DNA from: a virus
Direction: 5' to 3' (one strand)
Length of the DNA stretch: 64,000 nt
Virus record (IMG/VR): IMGVR_UViG_3300010401_000005
Span: 6,113 to 70,112 of that record
The notes beneath the pieces are model-generated. The model searched no databases. It was not told the DNA's origin and saw only the letters and a program-made list of their open reading frames with translations. Below are positions 2,575 through 56,709 of the stretch, one piece after another; positions within the stretch are counted from its first letter, which is position 1, and every line of letters begins with the position of its first letter. Made by a program: the position numbers and the translations under genes.

Positions 2575-2694
2575 GTTTCGATCTGCTTCCCGAAAAGGAT
2601 CTGCTTTTCGATTTCTGCCCGTGTCCTCGACCCCATCGCTATTTTGCTGTTGAGACTGATGGTATCTCCGGTTTCTTTCTGTTTGCTTCTCCTC

Positions 2695-2937
2695 TCAGTC
2701 TGCCGTCTCCGGGTTATCAATTTCACCCTTCCCATCACACACAAAGCATTTCGTAGACATCGCCCTCCATTTTTCAGGATACCTACGCCTCTCGTGATAC
2801 ACCCTTTCAAAGTTATCCTCTAACTGCCCAATGTTGCGTACACGGCCTCTGCCGTAGCATCTCCAACAGGGGAGGGTGCGCGGTTCTGATTGGATCTGCT
2901 TCATTTTGGTGAACTCCTCTCTCTTTGCAGTTTCCAC
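2695..2937 (-). CDS. small CxxCxGxG zinc-finger protein
   Basis: CWRCYGRG and CFVCDGKG motifs. Confidence 0.55.
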   Translation of the reverse strand: METAKREEFTKMKQIQSEPRTLPCWRCYGRGRVRNIGQLEDNFERVYHERRRYPEKWRAMSTKCFVCDGKGEIDNPETAD

Positions 2938-3260
2938 CCTTCTGCGCCCAAAGCCCGAATCCGTTCATACAACTTCAAGGATGGCTTTTGCCTATGTTCC
3001 GCGTACATGGTCTCTAGTTCGTCCCACGCTGCCACCATTGGCCCCCAATGTGGATACTTGGCACTGACTTCCTCCAGCCTATCCAGCCATTCAGGGAAAA
3101 GCGCAAAGAACCGTCTGCATCGCTCGAAGTCGTGAACATCGCTCGGTTCACTGCCGCCCATGTCACGGCCCGTCATTACACCGAAGATGCACTTTGACGA
3201 CGCGCCCACATCGCCGCCGACAAGCCAATCAATCTGCCTGTTTAAGTTATCTGTCGTCAT
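2901..3260 (-). CDS. conserved phage hypothetical protein
   Basis: WLxxGDVGASSK...PSDxxDFxRC pattern recalled from phage hypotheticals. Confidence 0.65.
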   Translation of the reverse strand: MTTDNLNRQIDWLVGGDVGASSKCIFGVMTGRDMGGSEPSDVHDFERCRRFFALFPEWLDRLEEVSAKYPHWGPMVAAWDELETMYAEHRQKPSLKLYERIRALGAEGWKLQRERSSPK

Positions 3261-3299
3261 CGTCTCTTAGTTATCTCCCTTCTCTTAGGGCGGGGGTCT

Positions 3300-3760
3300 G
3301 TGCGGCCCCTGGTGCCCCAGAAGAAACCTATTCCAGTAGACTCGTATTGATTGTAATAGTTCTATAAGGCTTTCGCCTATACCCTCTCCCTGCCGTTCCT
3401 CGCTTCTCTCCCTCTCCTCCCTCAACAGTAGCGTCGGTTCCCCTTGTCCTTGTCCAGCCCGGAGAAAAGTTCTCTGAGTAGGTGCAGACCACCCGGCGAT
3501 GTTTAGGCAAATGCCTCCTGTCCGGGTCAGGTTCAAAAGTGTTACTGTGTCGGTCGTGTTGGTCGCTTCGCTTCGGGCCTCTTGCGAGGCAGGCACTCCT
3601 TTTCAGAAGAACGCTTGCGCGTCGGTCGTCGGACTCTTACCGAGGTACTTTCGTAGACCGCTTTCGATGATTCCCGCAGGGCAATGACCCTGTAATGGAC
3701 ACCTATCCCCCATCCGGTCGTGAACCCGGATTACATGATCTTCAGGGGCGAAACTCTTTT
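3300..3760 (-). ncRNA. candidate ~450-nt structured RNA rich in GNRA-capped hairpins
   Basis: ~580-bp gap with no credible gene; minus-strand hairpins TAC-GAAA-GTA, ACGC-GCAA-GCGT, CTTCT-GAAA-AGGAG, GCCTC-GCAA-GAGGC, TATAGGC-GAAA-GCCTTATA; long-range TAGGTG/CACCTA pairing; ends approximate. Confidence 0.55.
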
Positions 3761-3845
3761 TATCTTTTTGCTGTCAATTCATTTTAGAGGAGGCATGGAA
3801 CCTGCTGCGGCATGATGGGGAAAGCCTCTCCTAAAGCATCCTCTG

Positions 3846-4109
3846 TCAGTTCATGGTCGAGCAGTTGTAAAACGCATCGCATACCGCATCGGGAACTATG
3901 ATCTCTCTGTAGAATTCTCCTGTCTCCATCCCGATAGAAGTTCCCTTCGGCATATTGTACTTTTGTATCAATTCAGAGATAACGCTTTTCTGCTTCCGAA
4001 AAGTATCCTCAGAAGGATGATCGAATGCCTTTTCGCATGCGTTCCACATTTCGACGCGTTCTTCTTCTGTGATGAATTTGCCCGTGCCTGCCGATGTAGT
4101 CCAACTCAT
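3846..4109 (-). CDS. hypothetical protein
   Basis: ATGA overlap with helicase stop; start MSWTT. Confidence 0.55.
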   Translation of the reverse strand: MSWTTSAGTGKFITEEERVEMWNACEKAFDHPSEDTFRKQKSVISELIQKYNMPKGTSIGMETGEFYREIIVPDAVCDAFYNCSTMN

Positions 4110-5920
4110 GCCTCTACCTTCTCCTTTTTGGCGTTCCACTTTTCCATATACTCTCCGATGAGTTTTAGGGCGTACCCATAGGGCATACAATCAATTTGCT
4201 GATCGGTATGCCCATTTGCCCGAAGGCATTTGTAACGTCCCGGAGATAACTTCTGAAGGGTTCCCCGCGAAGTTACCAACGCCATTGCCTCTCGGTGTTC
4301 CTTTATCTTCCAGTTTATCCACCGCTCGGCGTGGTCAAAATAGGCTTTGACACTTGCCCCGACAGAACCCTCTTTTTCAAGAAGTACGCTCCCTCCTTGC
4401 GAGATAATCACCTTGCCTGCATCTCCCTCATATATCAGATGTGCGGAATAGGAAGGAGGAGTTTTCGTGTACAGAAAATGCCCCGGATTGCCTGTACAGA
4501 CCTTCCACTTCTCTTTGGATTTTGCGCCACTATTACGCATCAGGTCGAGGTTTTCCATGACAACCGCCAACTCTTCAAAGTTCTTCGGCATTTTACCGAG
4601 GACTTCTCCCATTTCCTCCGCAGTTTCCGCCCTTTCTACCATCTTCTTCGCTTCTGTCAACGAATGGCCCTGCAAGTCCAGATCGGCAGGCAGATCCAGC
4701 ATAACCGGGACGGTGCAAACTTCATGTTTCCCACATACCCCCACCAGATCCAAAATCAAAGCGTCCGGTTTCGCGCTGGCAGCAATCTTATCCCGTCGCG
4801 ATTCCGAGGAATAGAGTTCCATCCCGTTTAGAAGTCCGTCAAGCGGTCGAGTTGCGCGGCCTGCTCTCTGCATGTATCGCGTCCAACTCTTTGTCATGTG
4901 CGCCATGAGGATACAGGAGCAATTCGGGGCGTCCACGCCCTTGCCATAGACGCCGAAATTACAGAGGACTTTAACACTCCCATCCTTGAGATTTTCAAGG
5001 GCATAATGCCGCGTCTGTGGATCGGTTTCGCAGTCTACGGAAACCGAAGGAATACCTGCCGCCGTGAAATGCTCCGCGAGGGCGGCAGCGTGGTGTACGG
5101 ACGCGCAAAAGGCTATAGTCGGTCTGTCTTCGGCATACTGCTTCCACGCCGATACAATGGCATCATTTACTTCGTCGCGGTCGGTTTCGGCAGCGAGTTC
5201 GGTTTGATTGAATTCCGATTCACCGTCCTTTGAAATACTCTTGACTTTCGAGAGATCAATCGGAACCGGCAAACCTTTGCCGCGTATCGGGACAATCCAC
5301 CCGTCTTCTATCGCTTCAATCAGATCGTAATTAAAGCAGTGGATCTCAAAGACGCTCGTTTCCTTGCTGGCAGGCTTCTTCTTGCCGTCTTTGTCCTCAA
5401 TGATATAAGGCGTTCCGTCTGGGCGCAGCGCCGCAAGACTCTTTCTATCCAATCGCTTGAGCGTTGCCGTACATCCCACCTTTACCGCGTCAGGAAATCG
5501 GGTGAAGAGTTTCTTAAACGAAGCCGCCGCCGCCGTGTGGCATTCGTCAGTTATGATTGCATCAGGCGTCCACCCATTCAATCGCCTTTCGGAATAAATT
5601 GTCTGGATGGTTGCGACTACGACGCGGTGTTGTGGAGCGCAGTAGTTTGAATTGCTCTCCACCCCTATAACCATCTCAGAGAGTTTGCAATGGTCACGAA
5701 TGCGCTTGTATGCCTGCTCTACGAGTTCGCGGCTATCCACCACGACGAGAACTCGCCAATCATAGTCCTCTAAAAAATGGCGCGTGATCTCCGAGAATAC
5801 CGTCGTTTTTCCTGCACCTGTCGGCAGGGTATAGCATATGCGCGCATACCCTGCAACGAGTGCATCGAATACTGCGTCTGTTGCGCCATGTTGATAAGGG
5901 CGGAGGATTTGAGTTCCCAT
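4106..5920 (-). CDS. superfamily 2 DEAD/DEAH-box helicase
   Basis: LRPYQ Q-motif, PTGAGKT, DECH, TAT, GVD, QRAGRATR. Confidence 0.93.
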   Translation of the reverse strand: MGTQILRPYQHGATDAVFDALVAGYARICYTLPTGAGKTTVFSEITRHFLEDYDWRVLVVVDSRELVEQAYKRIRDHCKLSEMVIGVESNSNYCAPQHRVVVATIQTIYSERRLNGWTPDAIITDECHTAAAASFKKLFTRFPDAVKVGCTATLKRLDRKSLAALRPDGTPYIIEDKDGKKKPASKETSVFEIHCFNYDLIEAIEDGWIVPIRGKGLPVPIDLSKVKSISKDGESEFNQTELAAETDRDEVNDAIVSAWKQYAEDRPTIAFCASVHHAAALAEHFTAAGIPSVSVDCETDPQTRHYALENLKDGSVKVLCNFGVYGKGVDAPNCSCILMAHMTKSWTRYMQRAGRATRPLDGLLNGMELYSSESRRDKIAASAKPDALILDLVGVCGKHEVCTVPVMLDLPADLDLQGHSLTEAKKMVERAETAEEMGEVLGKMPKNFEELAVVMENLDLMRNSGAKSKEKWKVCTGNPGHFLYTKTPPSYSAHLIYEGDAGKVIISQGGSVLLEKEGSVGASVKAYFDHAERWINWKIKEHREAMALVTSRGTLQKLSPGRYKCLRANGHTDQQIDCMPYGYALKLIGEYMEKWNAKKEKVEA

Positions 5921-11847: not shown

Positions 11848-11929
11848 TTGTTCTCCTCAATCAAAACCCCCAATACCCACCGAAACCCCCTCTGACGTGT
11901 CCCTTGTGGTGGATGCTGTCCATTTACAA

Positions 11930-12377
11930 ATGCTAAAACCAACGTGAGGACTTGAACCTCCCCGACATAAACGGTTCCACTCTTGCGAGGCGTTGGTTCC
12001 CGGATTCCGTCTGGCCTAGCCATCCGTGTCGTCTCCCGGCGAAGACATTTCCCGCGAGGTTGCGAATCCTCGTCACGCTATCGGGAACAGGTTTCGATAG
12101 AACGGACTCCCCTCCGTTCGGCGTTTACTTTTTAGCCGTGCCTCTCGTACCTCAATCATGGGCAGGAGACGTTTGATCGACCTTGCGGTTCATTCCGCAC
12201 TCTTGAAAGCCTAGTGTCTCAAGGCCATACGCCGCGATGCTCTCCAGCACCGCTACCGTCAGCATTTACTGCTGAGAATTCTTCAAATCAGAGCGAGTAG
12301 ACTCAACCCGTCCCGGTTGTCTTTGCCGCCTACTCGCCGCCTGCACGGATCTGTCTCCAAGATCCTGATGTGCAAGA
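11930..12377 (-). ncRNA. candidate ~450-nt multi-domain structured RNA with tRNA-like 3' domain
   Basis: >10 consecutive hairpins, long-range CGTCTCC/GGAGACG helix, 3' GAGG-TTCAAGT-CCTC T-arm closed by AACCAACG/CGTTGGTT. Confidence 0.7.
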
Positions 12378-12776
12378 TTACAGAGACGCTACCAGTTCCC
12401 GCAGTTCCTCTTCGGACTTGCCCTCCAACGCCTCATTCTGCTTGCGGTGGATGATCTCAAGGATCTGCTGCTTCTTCTCCGAATTGGCCCGCAGGGTCTC
12501 TGCCGCTTCCTCTGCCACCTGTCGGACTTCAATGACGCGCAGAACGATGTCGAACTTGAGTTTCAGAATCTCGTTCGGCCTGGTCGCCTTCTTCACGAAT
12601 GATGTGGTTCCGGCATCCTGAATCTGCTTGTTCAGGTTCACCGCCAGCGTATCCAGGTCAACGCGGTTCGGGCGGTTTGTCGTCAGCGGGAGATCCCAGA
12701 GGTCTTCCACGGACAGCGGTCCCTGCGTCGTCTCGAACCGAATCTTCTGCTGCGATGCTTGTTCAAAAATGCTCAT
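12378..12776 (-). CDS. conserved phage coiled-coil hypothetical protein
   Basis: IFEQAS..KIRF....G.LSVEDLWDLPL pattern recalled from phage hypotheticals; AGGAG RBS. Confidence 0.85.
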   Translation of the reverse strand: MSIFEQASQQKIRFETTQGPLSVEDLWDLPLTTNRPNRVDLDTLAVNLNKQIQDAGTTSFVKKATRPNEILKLKFDIVLRVIEVRQVAEEAAETLRANSEKKQQILEIIHRKQNEALEGKSEEELRELVASL

Positions 12777-12787
12777 TGTTTTTCTCC

Positions 12788-14830
12788 TTAAAAGATGACT
12801 TTCAACACCTGGTTAAAGGAACCGGAAACCTTTACCACGATGCTATTGCGTTGTGTGGACGAAAAGCCCAAACCGGACAGTTGTTCGTCACTGTTCTCCG
12901 TCCTCATGCGACTTCCGACGATCTCCATAGTCTTGCGATGTGTCTCCAGTTCGGAGGTCAGGAACTCATTGTAAAAGCCTCGTGCCGTACCGTCATTTTT
13001 GCACCCGTCCAGCATGAAGAAGAAGTGCTTGTTCCCCACGCCTCTGCCGTCCCAGAAGTTCGGAGAAAGCATCAACGCCGACACGCGGGTAAACTGCTGC
13101 GTTTTGATTCCCCATTTCTCCCGTGTAGCCTGCGAGGATTGCAGGACAGGGACGACCTCGATTCCCTGCTCGGTGACGTTCAGTTTTGCTACCTCGACAG
13201 TGCCGGTAACGGGCTTTTCGTAGGAGAAAGAATAAACGGTTCCGAGGACATCTATCTCCACGTCAAAACCGACATCCACCGATTCGCGCTTTCGGTATTG
13301 GTTGACGACAAGGGAATAGGTTCCTTTTGCCATAGTCGCCTTAGTACCGTAGAAAATGTTCTCTACCGCGTTTCTGACAAGGACACCGCTCACGTTCATA
13401 TCCACGTCCAGACGCCCGCCCGTTCGCGGACTGTGCTTGTTGGCATAGTGAACATGGAAACCGCCCGCCTCTCGCATGTGAAGATCCAAGTCATCGGTAT
13501 TCCACCACGCCAACCGACAGCACACATCTCCGGTAACGTTCCCACCCGCCGCCTTCACCTTCTCCTTGATGCTATCCGCCACATCGCCCGCATACGACCA
13601 CGAAAACGGGTTCGGCCATTTGAACAGGTTCTTTGCGGTCAGGTCGAACGGCGCAATCAAAGAGACAAGATTGCTGACGTGCTTGTTCTCAAACAGAACT
13701 TCCAGGCTTTCCGCAGTTGGCAGGATGTCCGCAAGGAACTTCTCTATCCCGATTTCCTCCACCCTATCAAAGTTCTTTGCCGCCTGTCCTTTTGTGGGAA
13801 GGGTATCGAACACATCCCCGGCAAGACGGTTCCTGATATTCCTATCTGCGAACAGGACATTCGTTATATTGATGTCCTCCAGTCGCGCATAACGCCGGTC
13901 AAGGGATTCCAACAGCCCCAAGCTTTCGAGTGTCACCTTCGCCGCATCCTTCATGCGAGGAGTAATCAGGGCAGTCGGACGCTTGTAATTCGTACCGCTC
14001 ACCTTGTCCTCGAAACTTTTGACGGCTTTCTCCAAGTCAACGCCCTCGGACAGGTCAACAAGCAAAGTCCCGATCACGTCGTTTCGGAAGCGGCAGGCAA
14101 ACGCATTCGGCCCGACCACCTGAGACCACGCGAAGAGATCCTGCGCTTTGTCGCCGGTAACGTTATCGAAATCCCTCTTCATCTGAGCGAAGGTATCCAA
14201 GACGGCTTTCTTCTCCGCGCCCCGATAGAGGCTGTTTTGAGCGATCAAATCCTGCACCGTCTCAATCGTATCTGTGGTGATCTCTTGCAAACCTCTCAGA
14301 CAAACATCGTGCGCCGAACGATAGTCAGACCATTTCGGGCCACGCAGCGCCGCCGAACAGTAGAGGTTTTGGGGCAGGCTTAGGTTGAAATGATCCCACG
14401 TCAGAACATTCCCGCTGCTCTCCTCAAAGTTCCTGCCCTGTCCTACATGCCCCTCGAAGTGCAGGAATACGTTGCTGATGGGTAGACTTCGGACGTACTC
14501 TGCCAGTGCGTCCACAACTGGCTGATACCCCGGTACAGCCATGTCCCAGAGCGTTTGCACTTCGCCATGCAAAATCGTCACCATACCGCCCGCGTTCTTG
14601 ACAAACGACCGGCACCCGGAACAATCGTGTTCGGTGCGCTCTCGAAACATGGGGTTTGTCCCTTCCGGGAACGAGGCAAGGTAGATGCGCCAGATTTCGT
14701 CTTTGTCGATCTCTGCCTGAAAGATCGGTAGACCTTTCATTTCGTTGAATCGTCGCTGAACTGCCAGTTGGATGTCCTGAAAGTTCAGCTTTTTAACATC
14801 GGTCTCCGCTTTTGTTTGTGTTACTGTCAT
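12788..14830 (-). CDS. large conserved phage protein (HDCxxC motif; C-terminal YfaP/DUF2135-like domain)
   Basis: YLASFPEG..P.FRERTEHDCSGCRSF; W.NTDDLDLH...LDVDMN...AVENI; start MTVTQ after RBS. Confidence 0.85.
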   Translation of the reverse strand: MTVTQTKAETDVKKLNFQDIQLAVQRRFNEMKGLPIFQAEIDKDEIWRIYLASFPEGTNPMFRERTEHDCSGCRSFVKNAGGMVTILHGEVQTLWDMAVPGYQPVVDALAEYVRSLPISNVFLHFEGHVGQGRNFEESSGNVLTWDHFNLSLPQNLYCSAALRGPKWSDYRSAHDVCLRGLQEITTDTIETVQDLIAQNSLYRGAEKKAVLDTFAQMKRDFDNVTGDKAQDLFAWSQVVGPNAFACRFRNDVIGTLLVDLSEGVDLEKAVKSFEDKVSGTNYKRPTALITPRMKDAAKVTLESLGLLESLDRRYARLEDINITNVLFADRNIRNRLAGDVFDTLPTKGQAAKNFDRVEEIGIEKFLADILPTAESLEVLFENKHVSNLVSLIAPFDLTAKNLFKWPNPFSWSYAGDVADSIKEKVKAAGGNVTGDVCCRLAWWNTDDLDLHMREAGGFHVHYANKHSPRTGGRLDVDMNVSGVLVRNAVENIFYGTKATMAKGTYSLVVNQYRKRESVDVGFDVEIDVLGTVYSFSYEKPVTGTVEVAKLNVTEQGIEVVPVLQSSQATREKWGIKTQQFTRVSALMLSPNFWDGRGVGNKHFFFMLDGCKNDGTARGFYNEFLTSELETHRKTMEIVGSRMRTENSDEQLSGLGFSSTQRNSIVVKVSGSFNQVLKVIF

Positions 14831-14857
14831 TCGTCTCTCTTTTCCTTTCACACAAGA

Positions 14858-49592: not shown

Positions 49593-49692
49593 TGCATTCT
49601 CCTTTCAATGCGCCTTCGTTTAAGTTGTTACCGGGCAGAGCGGCGAAGGAAAGACCGCCTCTTCGGGCTGCACTCCCTAGCCCGGTAACGCA
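49593..49692 (-). promoter_or_regulatory. head-operon cis-RNA motif copy C (divergent)
   Basis: GTTACCGGGC/GCCCGGTAAC stem, TAGG...CCGAAG junction, inner loop CCTTCG complementary to downstream CGAAGG. Confidence 0.5.
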
Positions 49693-54891: not shown

Positions 54892-56709
54892 TCTCCTCGT
54901 TGCGGGCTTCCCGCGTCTGTCGGTTCACTTCGAGTGCCACCATCTGCGCGGGGGTCTTTATCATGGCGTCCAGTGCCTTCGCCTGTCCCTGCATGAAACG
55001 AAACTCTTCTGCCGTCTTCGCCTCCATCAACTTCTCAAGAGCGTTCTGACGAAGGGCAAAATAATAAGGGTAGATTTCCTGTGTCCAGATGTCGGAGTAC
55101 AGAATGCGTTCCCAATTCGGCTGACGCTCCAGGTTATCGGGCGGCGTGAGTTCGATGACGGGCACGGTGGATTCGGGTTCAGGTTTTTGCCACCAGAAGC
55201 GCATTACTCTTCTCCCTCGAATCCCTCATCGGTATCATGGTTGCCGCTCAAGTGGTCGTGAATAAACTTCTGCGCCATGCCGACGCAGGTAAAACCGCCG
55301 CCGTAAAAGGCATTGCGAACCCGTTCTACGCCTTCATTACCTGCTTTGTCGTCCACATCCATCACGCAAACCAGAAGGGCGCGGTGACGGGTCTTCAGTT
55401 CGTCAATGAGTTCTTGTGACGAAGCCACGGCAAGCGGATTGATGACAAAAGTATCCTCACCCATTACGGCGTATCCTCTTTCTTGGTACTCTGATTCACC
55501 ACCTTGCCCGTACCACGACAGGAAGCGCACTTCTTCGCGCCCTTCATGCCCGTGCCCTTACACGCCGAACAGGATTTTGCTTTCTTCAAGGCGATCTCCC
55601 TACAACCACACAAACTGAATAATCGTCGTATTCGCGCACAGAAGCCCAAACGCAAAGGACTGCGACGGATCAATAGACAGCCAACAGGTCTGCGTCTTGT
55701 GCAGATACAAATGGGTTACATCACCCGATTCACCCTTTAGAACTATGGTCCCGGTGTTGTCGGAGGGTGGCTGAATCCCCACCTTGACCGCGCCCGTCTG
55801 CACCGTAATTGCCGCAAAGGTGTTGGCGACAAAGGTCTGCTGCGTGCGGGTCTGAGGCGCGGCGGCGTTGGTCTCGGTCGGTACGTCGGCATGGTCGGTC
55901 TCGTTACCGGCGAGGTTGGTTTTCGTCCACGATGCGTTAAAGGTGCTGGATGCTGCCATTTACTTCGCCTCTCCGAAAATGTTGATCGCCTTCACCACTT
56001 CACCGGGTTTGCGTCCATACCCGAATTCGTTCATTGCGCCCCGCTTTTTGGCTTGCCCCCATGCCCATGACAGGAGAACCATATCTGCGCTTTCCTGATC
56101 CTGCATGACCGGGATTCGCACCACATCGGGCAATTCTTCCGCCGCAACTATCGCCAACAGGCAATCGTATGCTTCGCCCTTCTGCCGTTTGTCAATGTCC
56201 TTGTAGAAAATCATCTCCCACGTCAGACATTTGGCTTCCCAATGGGCCTCAGCGGAAATCCCCGATTCGAGTTCGATCAATGGCATCAGTTTTTTGCCTT
56301 CTTACCCTTCAAAACCCGGTTCGCTTTCGCGTCTACGGTCGCCTTCTGTGCAGGCGTCAGGTTCCCCTTTGCCTCTTGCTGCGTTGCGCGGGCTTTTGCG
56401 TTCGCTGCGTGCGCCCTGTCGCCGGGAGGGATCGGATATTTGCGCTCCGAAGGTAAGGCGAAATCAGATTTGGGCAAGGCTTTGCGTCTTGCAGTCGAAA
56501 ACTTGCTCATCTCTCCGAACTCCCCTTTCTTTCCAGAACTCTGCCGACATTCGGTCAAGAAAATCCGTTCGATGTACGTCCAACGCTTCGGAAATATCAC
56601 GCATCGCATATTGAACAGGCGTATAACCGCGAAACAGATCGTCAGCAATATCGTCAATGCTGCACGGTTCCCAATAGGGCAACGAATCAGGCCAAATGTA
56701 AGAACTCAT
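54827..56709 (-). CDS. small genes between portal and scaffold (54827-55204, 55204-55464, 55464-55589 CxxCxGxG, 55600-55959, 55960-56286, 56286-56510 basic, 56464-56709)
   Basis: TAATG/ATGA coupling; 56286-56510 has RKALPKSDFALP..RKYPI...HA.NA.AR motif. Confidence 0.6.

What the first reader, a model, noticed from the sequence alone, without database searches (positions are those of the whole stretch)
3300..3760. GNRA-rich ~450-nt structured RNA with a 3' purine tract just downstream of the helicase: candidate primer RNA / R-loop origin
Seen: a ~580-bp gap in an otherwise overlapping gene run. On the minus strand it folds into a string of hairpins, five with GNRA loops (3646-3655, 3611-3622, 3596-3609, 3577-3590, 3363-3381). 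There are also ATCCGG/CCGGAT (3712-3731) and CAGGG/CCCTG helices and a long-range TAGGTG(3705-3700)/CACCTA(3484-3479) helix. G-U pairs and loop identity favour the minus strand. Near the 3' end the transcript is almost pure A/G (3423-3382). Known: ColE1 RNA II is a ~555-nt folded RNA whose G-rich segment forms an R-loop to prime replication. Inference: this sits where an initiator/primase is usually found (helicase to RusA) and none is visible, so it may be an RNA-based origin or another new large ncRNA.
Basis: partly seen in the sequence, partly recalled or inferred. Interest (0 to 1): 0.75.

Follow-up and report, generated by a model that had tools for sequence, protein, structure and literature searches.

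The report
Non-coding hairpin-and-purine element after phage helicase
A 585-base gene-free stretch behind a repair-type helicase gene of a soil phage holds a strand-specific set of small hairpins and a purine run that recurs, in the same order, behind related helicase genes of three other phage contigs, so it is a real but uncatalogued element whose job (most likely an RNA leader, not shown to be a replication origin) is still open.

Summary
The observation largely holds. Window 3261-3845 has no called gene. Its minus strand carries five GNRA-loop hairpins against none on the plus strand: four with stems of 4 bp or more, 0.51 expected, reached by 1 of 2000 shuffles. It also holds the most purine-rich 42-mer of the genome, 39 of 42.

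It is not a thermodynamically stable large fold. MFE z is +0.87, and local z-scores run from -0.47 to +1.75. Rfam gives nothing.

Three contigs with helicases about 40% identical (L002, L003, L216) carry a non-coding element in the same place. They share a covarying hairpin: 7 of 16 pairs changed on both sides, matched by 0 of 500 shuffles. A covariance model of that hairpin does not match the window (7 bits, E 9).

The hairpin's invariant frame (CU-N-A, stem, U-GG) occurs once in the 70-kb genome, at 3530-3489(-). That is the expected slot between the ACGACCGAC repeats and the purine tract.

I read it as a divergent member of a small new family, most likely a cis-acting RNA leader. The primer RNA / R-loop origin idea is neither supported nor excluded: the scan found no sigma-70-type promoter and there is no GC-skew turn, and the helicase resembles RadD/XPB.

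The parts
3261..3845 (-). Whole non-coding spacer (585 nt) between the 87-aa gene and the 119-aa phrog_1229 gene
   Evidence: no gene called; the longest ORF has no homologue.
3754..3785 (-). A+T-rich stretch that contains a TTGACA hexamer but no matching -10
   Evidence: The promoter scan found 0 sites in 2800-4300.
3712..3731 (-). Hairpin A: 6-bp stem ATCCGG/CCGGAT with an 8-nt loop. MAFFT placed it opposite a T-arm-like hairpin of L002.
   Evidence: The T-arm likeness of L002 is judged by eye and ARAGORN finds no tRNA there.
3677..3692 (-). Hairpin B: CAGGG/CCCTG
3646..3655 (-). Hairpin C: 3-bp stem, GAAA loop
3621..3629 (-). ACGACCGAC repeat, copy 1; it overlaps the foot of hairpin D
   Evidence: 4 copies in the window against 0.75 expected; 1 of 100 shuffles reach 4
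3577..3623 (-). Three GNRA hairpins nearly back to back, 5-bp stems: D 3623-3610 (GCAA), E 3609-3596 (GAAA), F 3590-3577 (GCAA). D and E each hold one G-U pair.
   Evidence: L002 has two such hairpins back to back in the corresponding place.
3565..3571 (-). GCGAAGC, a mini-hairpin motif
   Evidence: The motif class is as described in PMC13037366 (passages read).
3549..3557 (-). ACGACCGAC repeat, copy 2, 72 nt after copy 1
3489..3530 (-). Hairpin G: CU-G-A + CCCGG / CCGGG + U-GG, with a 25-nt loop that holds a small inner hairpin (3515-3506). Proposed counterpart of the covarying core hairpin of L002, L003 and L216.
   Evidence: the only match to this frame on either strand of the genome; alignment.
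3462..3474 (-). Hairpin H: GAGAA/TTCTC, 3-nt loop
3382..3423 (-). Purine tract, 39 of 42 A/G, with four GGG runs and repeated GGAG/GAGG words
3363..3381 (-). Hairpin I directly after the tract: GGC-GAAA-GCC core extended by A-U pairs. It contains GCGAAAGC.
   Evidence: L002, L003 and L216 have a short G+C hairpin in the same position.
3344..3362 (-). A+U-rich tail (contains ACUAUUAC), with look-alikes after the hairpin in L216, L003 and L002
   Evidence: judged by eye
3846..4109 (-). 87-aa gene of unknown function, between the helicase gene and the element (its ATG overlaps the helicase stop)
4106..5920 (-). SF2 helicase, 604 aa, the only neighbour conserved among the related loci

Best explanation
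The stretch is a real, strand-specific, non-coding element. It is a divergent member of a small family, not in Rfam 15, that sits just downstream of one clade of RadD/XPB-like SF2 helicase genes in phage contigs from environmental samples.

The family has a fixed order of modules on the helicase strand:
1. small hairpins, many with GNRA loops;
2. CGACCGAC-type repeats;
3. one hairpin framed by CU-N-A ... U-GG, with an invariant U-G pair;
4. a G-run purine tract;
5. a short G+C hairpin;
6. an A+U-rich tail, followed by the next gene.

I think it most likely acts as RNA, as a long structured leader inside the operon transcript. In that reading the compact GNRA hairpins act as stable, independent folding units. 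The framed hairpin is a recognition site for a protein or the transcription/translation machinery. The purine tract of Shine-Dalgarno-like words loads or holds ribosomes for the gene behind it.

Shown: non-coding, strand-specific hairpins, module order shared with relatives, and covariation in the relatives. Inferred: that it acts as RNA, and every step of the mechanism.
For: Non-coding.

Strand-specific GNRA hairpins above chance: 5 on the minus strand against 0 on the plus strand; 4 with stems of 4 bp or more against 0.51 expected, reached by 1 of 2000 shuffles.

Relatives: L002, L003 and L216 have non-coding stretches of about 430-490 nt after the helicase gene and 0-2 small ORFs.

Covariation: their core hairpin has 16 pairs, 95.8% of cells paired, 7 pairs changed on both sides, 0 of 500 shuffles as high, and slid controls at 35-52% paired.

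G-U pairs: one U-G pair is invariant in all three relatives and is also present in the window's hairpin G. Hairpins D and E each hold a G-U pair. These would be C-A mismatches on the other strand and are weaker as DNA.

Frame test: the frame, taken from the invariant columns of the relatives alone, matches once on both strands of the 70,112-bp genome, at 3530-3489(-), inside the expected 125-nt slot. It matches once each in L002, L003 and L216, at their core hairpin.

Purine tract position: the most purine-rich 30-mer of the helicase strand lies 32-683 nt after the helicase stop in 5 of 5 loci. CGACCGAC-type words lie 130-200 nt before it in 4 of 5.

Translation link: in L004 only the purine tract is left, and it directly precedes the next start codon. 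GAGG, GGGAG and AGGAG are in the top 1-3% of genome windows.

Transcription in a relative: in L216 a TGnTATAAT-type promoter (by eye) and a 29-aa ORF precede the element on the same strand.
Against: - Folding energy is no better than shuffles, over the whole gap or in any 150-nt window.
- No sequence or covariance-model match links the window to the relatives: nhmmer found none in 13 loci; blastn gave only 13-25-nt matches; model R1 gave 7.0 bits, E 9, rank 15 of 17.
- The homology therefore rests on module order and one short frame. Three of the four members are close to each other, so they are not independent.
- Only four members were found, with no expression data.
- Covariation and G-U pairs are shown mainly in the relatives, not in the window.
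- GNRA-type loops are equally the stable mini-hairpins of single-stranded DNA (PMC13037366), so the hairpins alone do not tell RNA from DNA.
- In the window the purine tract ends 122 nt before the next start codon, too far for an ordinary ribosome-binding site.
Confidence: 0.42

Rival explanations
1. Replication start region. Transcription through the G-run purine tract leaves a persistent RNA-DNA hybrid that primes DNA synthesis. Alternatively, the hairpin-rich strand, once single-stranded, is a priming or helicase-loading signal like the G4 complementary-strand origin or ssiA of RSF1010.
For: - The element is linked to the helicase gene and to nothing else: tblastn of my 104 ORFs against the loci shows the helicase as the only gene shared with L002-L004 around it.
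- The G-run purine tract lies on the non-template strand and is followed by an A+U-rich stretch.
- ACGACCGAC is repeated directly.
- GCGAAAGC, GCGAAGC and GCGCAAGC are exactly the extraordinarily stable DNA mini-hairpin words reported at the G4 primase site and near ssiA. The printed G4 mini-hairpin fragment shares the 10-mer GGCGAAAGCC with hairpin I (PMC13037366, passages).
- Such words run at 5.1 per kb here against 1.6 per kb on that strand of the genome, and are 2.5 to 8-fold enriched in the elements of L002, L003 and L216.
- T4 oriF/oriG work by R-loops from a promoter plus an A+T-rich unwinding element (PMC3016281, passages).
- No primase, polymerase or initiator was seen in the 40 of 104 ORFs scanned.
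Against: - No promoter-like site in 2800-4300.
- No turn of cumulative GC skew here; it follows gene direction.
- Only two repeat copies, and the A+T-rich pieces are 19 and 32 nt.
- Conserved G-U pairs would be G-T mismatches in DNA hairpins.
- The helicase looks like RadD/XPB repair helicases, not a replicative or initiator helicase, and no primase-like or origin-binding domain was recognised.
- 64 of 104 ORFs were not scanned, so a primase or initiator elsewhere is not excluded.
- No Rfam match to plasmid replication RNAs.
Confidence: 0.25
2. A free-standing, trans-acting non-coding RNA of about 300-450 nt, cut out of or separately transcribed from this region. This would be a new 'ornate' phage RNA acting on host or phage targets.
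For: - High, strand-specific density of GNRA loops, which in large RNAs dock into receptors.
- A conserved 12-nt loop sequence in the relatives' core hairpin.
- L216 has its own promoter upstream (by eye).
Against: - No promoter or intrinsic terminator bounds it in the window. The one terminator-like hit is on the plus strand.
- No stable global fold.
- No match to any Rfam family, including the large ornate RNAs held there.
- The loop sequence conserved in the relatives is absent from the window.
Confidence: 0.13
3. Functionless spacer or decayed gene. The hairpins and the purine run would be compositional accidents, and the likeness to the other loci would be loose convergence.
For: - Energy z-scores near zero.
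- No alignable homologue.
- The 12-mer said to be shared with the other large gap of the genome is at chance level: 6 matches against 6.14 expected.
Against: - GNRA hairpin count reached by 1 of 2000 shuffles, and the highest in the genome.
- The richest purine 42-mer of the genome sits in the place predicted from four other loci.
- The frame match is unique in 140 kb of sequence searched and falls in the predicted slot.
- No trace of a coding frame or protein homologue.
Confidence: 0.15

Closest known systems
Candidate structured RNAs of phage intergenic regions (Fremin and co-workers 2023, PMC10690425; Weinberg and co-workers 2017, PMC5737381)
   Same: A non-coding stretch inside a phage operon, with strand-specific hairpins and covariation in relatives, and of unknown function.
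   Different: I saw no sign that this element is among them. A word search of the main text of PMC10690425 for helicase, GNRA and origin gave 0 occurrences each. PMC5737381 I saw only as a search listing. Rfam 15 has no match.
ColE1 RNA II primer / R-loop origin (recalled from general knowledge; no paper read)
   Same: Several hundred nt of hairpin-rich transcript with a G-rich part near its 3' side, next to replication-related genes.
   Different: No promoter found at the 5' side, no antisense RNA I-like partner, no Rfam hit, and no stable fold. The phage is not a plasmid, and RNase H / Pol I dependence cannot be tested here.
T4 oriF/oriG R-loop origins (PMC3016281, passages read)
   Same: A phage with an SF2 helicase of a UvsW-related fold nearby (rank 31), where transcription into an easily opened stretch could prime DNA synthesis.
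   Different: The T4 origins are about 100 bp: a MotA-type promoter plus an A+T-rich unwinding element. Here no promoter was found, the A+T-rich pieces are short, and the G-run tract has no T4 counterpart.
Single-strand initiation signals with DNA mini-hairpins: the G4 complementary-strand origin and ssiA of RSF1010 (PMC13037366, passages read)
   Same: GCGAAAGC, GCGAAGC and CCGAAGG-type words on one strand. Hairpin I shares the 10-mer GGCGAAAGCC with the printed G4 mini-hairpin fragment.
   Different: Those signals are single compact sites of about 40-140 nt, recognised by a known primase on single-stranded DNA. Here no primase is identified, the element is about 500 nt, and several stems carry G-U pairs.
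The other long gap of this genome, window 11848-12377 (earlier finding e1-6179577)
   Same: The same genome and strand, a similar length, non-coding, hairpin-rich.
   Different: MAFFT finds no convincing alignment between the two. The shared 12-mer is at chance level.

Membership tests
Any Rfam 15 family (including plasmid replication RNAs and large ornate RNAs) | Match to the family's covariance model at or above its gathering score | tested here: not met
   the only window match is int-alpA at 49613-49687; the best hits in 3100-4000 score 13-15 bits with E 3-5. L002-L004 give only CRISPR-DR9 look-alikes in L003.
Helicase-downstream element of L002/L003/L216 (family defined here) | Position: non-coding, on the helicase strand, within about 700 nt after the stop of a helicase of this clade | tested here: met
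Helicase-downstream element of L002/L003/L216 (family defined here) | Module order: CGACCGAC-type repeats, then the framed hairpin, then the richest purine tract of the locus, then a short G+C hairpin and an A+U-rich tail | tested here: met
   (offsets +477/+549 and +683 in the window; +323 and +467 in L002; +206/+390 and +548 in L003; +464 to +528 and +646 in L216). The short hairpin and the tail are judged by eye.
Helicase-downstream element of L002/L003/L216 (family defined here) | Core hairpin frame CU-N-A / stem of 5 or more Watson-Crick pairs / U-GG | tested here: met
   1 match on both strands of 70,112 bp, at 3530-3489(-). With G-U pairs allowed there are 9 matches.
Helicase-downstream element of L002/L003/L216 (family defined here) | Significant match to the covariance model of the core (conserved 12-nt loop and outer helices) | tested here: not met
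   7.0 bits, E 9, rank 15 of 17. The conserved loop is replaced by a 25-nt loop. Membership is therefore 'divergent or partial', not secure.
ColE1-type RNA II origin | Promoter about 500 nt upstream of the priming site, driving the primer transcript | tested here: not met
   0 promoter-like sites on either strand of 2800-4300. The scan covers sigma-70-type promoters only.
ColE1-type RNA II origin | Stable multi-stem fold of the primer and an antisense RNA I | tested here: not met
   (z no better than shuffles); no antisense promoter
ColE1-type RNA II origin | Persistent RNA-DNA hybrid, RNase H cut, Pol I extension | not testable with these tools
   Needs wet-lab assays
T4-type R-loop origin | Promoter immediately followed by an A+T-rich unwinding element (PMC3016281) | tested here: inconclusive
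   No promoter. A+T-rich pieces of 32 nt (3785-3754) and 19 nt (3362-3344) exist.
Primase-recognised single-strand initiation signal (G4 / ssiA type) | Mini-hairpin words GCGNNAGC/GCGNAGC or CCGAAGG on the strand to be primed | tested here: met
   3 in 585 nt (5.1 per kb) against 1.6 per kb on that strand. The words are common, so this is weak.
Primase-recognised single-strand initiation signal (G4 / ssiA type) | A cognate primase and priming at the site | not testable with these tools
   No primase was recognised among the 40 of 104 ORFs scanned by Pfam, or among those scanned by PHROGs. Host primase use cannot be judged.

The most novel reading that the evidence does not exclude
The element is the phage's replication start. 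Transcription of the operon runs into the G-run purine tract and leaves an R-loop. The displaced hairpin-studded strand, with GNRA-type DNA mini-hairpins that resist SSB, then serves as the loading or priming site. The neighbouring RadD/UvsW-like helicase sets or resolves that R-loop. This would be a helicase-coupled, initiator-less origin design shared by a clade of soil phages.
Probability: 0.15. Interest if true: 0.8.

Novelty: new member of a known kind. Interest (0 to 1): 0.5.

Why it matters
If the reading holds, this is a new family of structured non-coding elements, absent from Rfam, that travels with one clade of repair-type helicase genes in soil phages.

Its modular design gives concrete handles for experiments on how phages manage long untranslated stretches inside operons. 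The modules are tandem GNRA hairpins, short direct repeats, a framed hairpin with an invariant U-G pair, a G-run purine tract and a mini-hairpin.

If the bolder reading is right, the same handles would show how a phage without a recognisable initiator starts replication.

As it stands the family has four members and no expression data, so it is a lead, not a discovery.

Tried and rejected
Searches for homologues of the gap:
- blastn of the gap against 50,697 GenBank phages: no match.
- nhmmer against 13 IMG/VR loci: none.
- Sensitive blastn among six candidate regions: only 13-25-nt matches to the window.
- Earlier-findings look-ups by sequence and by relatives: nothing.

Searches for related loci:
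- The search for related loci with the single helicase in viral contigs: none.
- With alignment A2: 13 loci, of which 3 have helicases about 40% identical.
- The genome-contig scan with the C-terminal alignment gave one locus, L216. The same alignment in viral contigs gave the same three loci again.
This is the main gap of the report.

Pattern scans of viral contigs:
- The L002/L003 core word found only those two.
- A two-motif pattern gave 117 stretches, about the number I expected by chance. After filtering, L109 and L126 share an unrelated conserved element that happens to hold the motif. They have no such helicase and no Rfam match.
- A looser core pattern gave 4 new stretches, all in coding sequence.

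Sequencing runs: only the probable source run is listed, and no RNA holder is listed. Laying it at 80% likeness showed only the source contig, with no variants.

Ideas dropped:
- CsrA-type sponge: GGA count is ordinary, 18 against 13.7 +/- 3.8.
- Rho-loading (C-rich, G-poor) bubble: maximum C minus G is 10 in 60 nt, below the genome's 99th percentile of 15.
- tRNA-like domain: ARAGORN found nothing in L002-L004 or in the gap.
- Paralogy with the gap at 11848-12377.
- Mobile element with terminal inverted repeats: the only candidate arms are the palindromic hairpin I itself.
- Phages with phrog_1229 or DUF8224 relatives gave only distant hits and were not followed.
- Pfam at E up to 10 on the helicase C-terminal part and on the two flanking small proteins: nothing meaningful.
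- PDB sequence search of three neighbouring proteins: nothing.
Full report
Setting. The window is bases 6113-70112 of a 70,112-bp IMG/VR phage record, 54% G+C, with a 123-bp terminal repeat. The only sequencing run listed as holding it is labelled soil metagenome. The finding lies in a run of minus-strand genes:
- an SF2 helicase (4106-5920; Pfam ResIII and Helicase_C, phrog_16);
- an 87-aa gene whose ATG overlaps the helicase stop (3846-4109);
- the 585-nt gap 3261-3845;
- a 119-aa phrog_1229 gene (2901-3260);
- further on, an MT-A70 methylase and a RusA-type resolvase.

The two flanking small proteins are in the public protein collection as called genes. None of 7 ORFs overlapping the gap is. 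The longest of these (3285-3596, 103 aa) has no homologue among 5.8 billion proteins and no Pfam or PHROG hit. The period-3 signal of the gap is 2.37, against 4.5-8.2 in the long genes tested; two short genes gave 1.36 and 1.75. The stretch is non-coding.

What is there.
- With stems of 4 bp or more there are four against 0.51 expected. One of 2000 dinucleotide shuffles reaches this. No other 585-nt window of the genome has as many.
- Three of them (3623-3577) stand nearly back to back, and two of these hold a G-U pair.
- They are flanked by two exact copies of ACGACCGAC, 72 nt apart.
- The purine tract 3423-3382 has 39 of 42 purines and is the richest 42-mer of the genome.
- It is followed at once by a GGC-GAAA-GCC hairpin and an A+U-rich tail.

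What is not there is a stable large fold. The whole gap folds no better than shuffles (z +0.87 on the minus strand, +1.98 on the plus strand). No 150-nt window inside it is below z -0.5. Rfam 15 gives nothing at gathering scores or at E up to 10. The scan found no sigma-70-type promoter on either strand and no terminator-like site on the minus strand.

Relatives. From the collections I could scan I obtained four loci with helicases about 40% identical: L002, L003 and L004 from IMG/VR, and L216 from a MAG contig. Apart from the helicase, my tblastn found no shared gene around it.

In L002, L003 and L216 the helicase gene is followed, after 0-2 small ORFs, by 430-490 nt without a convincing gene. 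In L004 only a purine tract lies between the helicase stop and the next start codon.

L002, L003 and L216 share a well-conserved core. It forms a 60-nt irregular hairpin of 16 pairs, with 95.8% of cells paired and seven pairs changed on both sides. None of 500 shuffles is as high, and slid controls fall to 35-52% paired. Its 12-nt loop and one U-G pair are invariant. This is good evidence that the relatives' element functions as a folded single strand. The three sequences are few and related, so the shuffle count is not a probability.

Is the window's element the same thing? By sequence, no. nhmmer, blastn and a covariance model of the core (R1) give nothing significant: 7.0 bits, E 9, rank 15 of 17. 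By architecture, yes.
- The most purine-rich 30-mer of the helicase strand lies 32-683 nt after the helicase stop in all five loci. In the 70-kb genome that placement alone has a chance of about 1 in 100 (my arithmetic).
- CGACCGAC-type words lie 130-200 nt upstream of that tract in the window, L002, L003 and L216, always on the helicase strand.
- I took the invariant frame of the relatives' hairpin (CU, one base, A, a stem of at least five Watson-Crick pairs, a loop of 4-40, U, GG) and scanned the whole genome on both strands. There is exactly one match, 3530-3489(-), in the 125-nt slot between the second repeat and the purine tract. The frame matches once each in L002, L003 and L216, at their core hairpin, and not in L004. 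With G-U pairs allowed there are nine matches in the genome, so the chance of one in that slot is about 0.001-0.008 (my arithmetic).
- In the window the stem is CCCGG/CCGGG, a further variant of the covarying stems. The loop is 25 nt with an inner hairpin instead of the conserved 12-mer.
- A short G+C hairpin with a GNRA or GAA loop, followed by an A+U-rich stretch, comes after the purine tract in all four (by eye).
- L002 also has two GNRA hairpins back to back just before its repeats, as the window has three.

I conclude that the window carries a divergent member of this family. Because the model test failed, the membership is probable, not secure.

RNA or DNA? The hairpins, the covariation and the strand bias fit any single-stranded nucleic acid.
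- For RNA: the invariant U-G pair and the G-U pairs inside the 5-bp stems of hairpins D and E; the constant sense orientation; and, in L216, a TGnTATAAT-type promoter plus a 29-aa ORF just upstream on the same strand (by eye).
- For DNA: GCGAAAGC, GCGAAGC and GCGCAAGC are the 'extraordinarily stable mini-hairpin' words of single-stranded DNA. These are reported at the primase start site of phage G4, with CCGAAGG in ssiA of RSF1010. The authors also report the RNA versions as much less stable (PMC13037366, passages read). Such words are about 3-fold enriched here and 2.5 to 8-fold in the relatives' elements, but they are common words and the numbers are small.

The origin idea. T4 shows that a phage can start replication from an R-loop made by a promoter and an A+T-rich unwinding element (PMC3016281, passages). 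A G-run tract on the non-template strand would favour a hybrid. Against the idea:
- no promoter here;
- short A+T-rich pieces only;
- no turn in cumulative GC skew.

The helicase model is confident (pLDDT 89). Its best structural matches are RadD over nearly its whole length (E 4e-21, TM 0.47), then XPB, with T4 UvsW at rank 31. These are repair and recombination helicases, and no primase or initiator domain was recognised.

I found no primase, polymerase or initiator. However, I scanned only 40 of 104 crude ORFs with Pfam and 20 with PHROGs. A large conserved protein (12788-14851, DUF8224-like) has no known function. The idea stays open at about one in four.

Most likely working. I favour a cis-acting RNA leader inside the operon transcript.
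- The purine tract consists of Shine-Dalgarno-like words. GAGG occurs 9 times against 3.2 in an average genome window, and only about 1 window in 100 has as many.
- The tract is always the last large module before the next gene. In the reduced L004 form it directly precedes the start codon.
- In that reading the compact hairpins keep a long untranslated stretch folded, and the framed hairpin is a recognition site.
- Every step of this is inference. The 122-nt distance from the tract to the start codon in the window argues against a simple ribosome-binding role.

Verdict. The 'large folded RNA' and 'primer RNA origin' readings are not supported by the tests that could be run, but the second is not excluded. 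The element belongs to a small family that Rfam 15 does not hold. I did not find it in the one paper I could search by words (PMC10690425; supplements closed). This is not a claim that it is not in print. Interest is moderate.

Noticed in passing
L003:533-569 and L003:4537-4573: Two identical 39-nt solitary copies of a CRISPR repeat (Rfam CRISPR-DR9, 43.8 bits against a gathering score of 45) lie 4 kb apart on one strand of a phage contig. The first sits between a promoter-like site and the ribosome site of an HTH-like gene. The second cuts short an HNH-like ORF and abuts the helicase-downstream element. They may be phage repeat mimics (the RNA anti-CRISPR idea, recalled) or an assembly oddity.
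   Followed up: partly
window 4150-4299, minus strand: The strongest local folding signal of the neighbourhood (z -4.86 for 150 nt, MFE -56.7 kcal/mol) lies inside the 3' end of the helicase gene, just before the overlapping start of the 87-aa gene.
   Followed up: no
L097 (genome 1-6400), about 2600-3300, minus strand; also window 55989-56670 minus: Other windows rich in GNRA hairpins with stems of 3 bp or more: 7 in the window outside the given sequence, near the small terminase gene, and 5 around 56 kb.
   Followed up: no
L109 (about 2300-2560, minus) and L126 (about 5400-5650, plus): Two unrelated phage contigs share a conserved non-coding element of about 250 nt (68.5% identity over 254 nt) with apparently compensatory stems. 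It has no Rfam match and no helicase of this clade. It was found by accident through a shared short motif.
   Followed up: partly
window 12788-14851 (minus) with 12378-12776 (minus): A 687-aa protein of phrog_1735 / DUF8224, about 49% identical to proteins of phiCbK-like Caulobacter phages. It is also found in Acinetobacter, Serratia, Salmonella and Klebsiella phage records (476 records). It is paired with a phrog_2018 protein, and no function is known for either.
   Followed up: partly
L216:4916-5140: A 65-aa ORF lies antisense to the helicase 3' end, followed by a TGnTATAAT-type promoter and a 29-aa ORF facing the element. The layout resembles a repressor/early-promoter switch.
   Followed up: no
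L002:2035-2060: A hairpin with a perfect tRNA T-arm look (5-bp stem, 7-nt loop) and a possible acceptor-like closure lies at the 5' end of L002's element. ARAGORN calls no tRNA. It could be an attachment-site remnant.
   Followed up: partly
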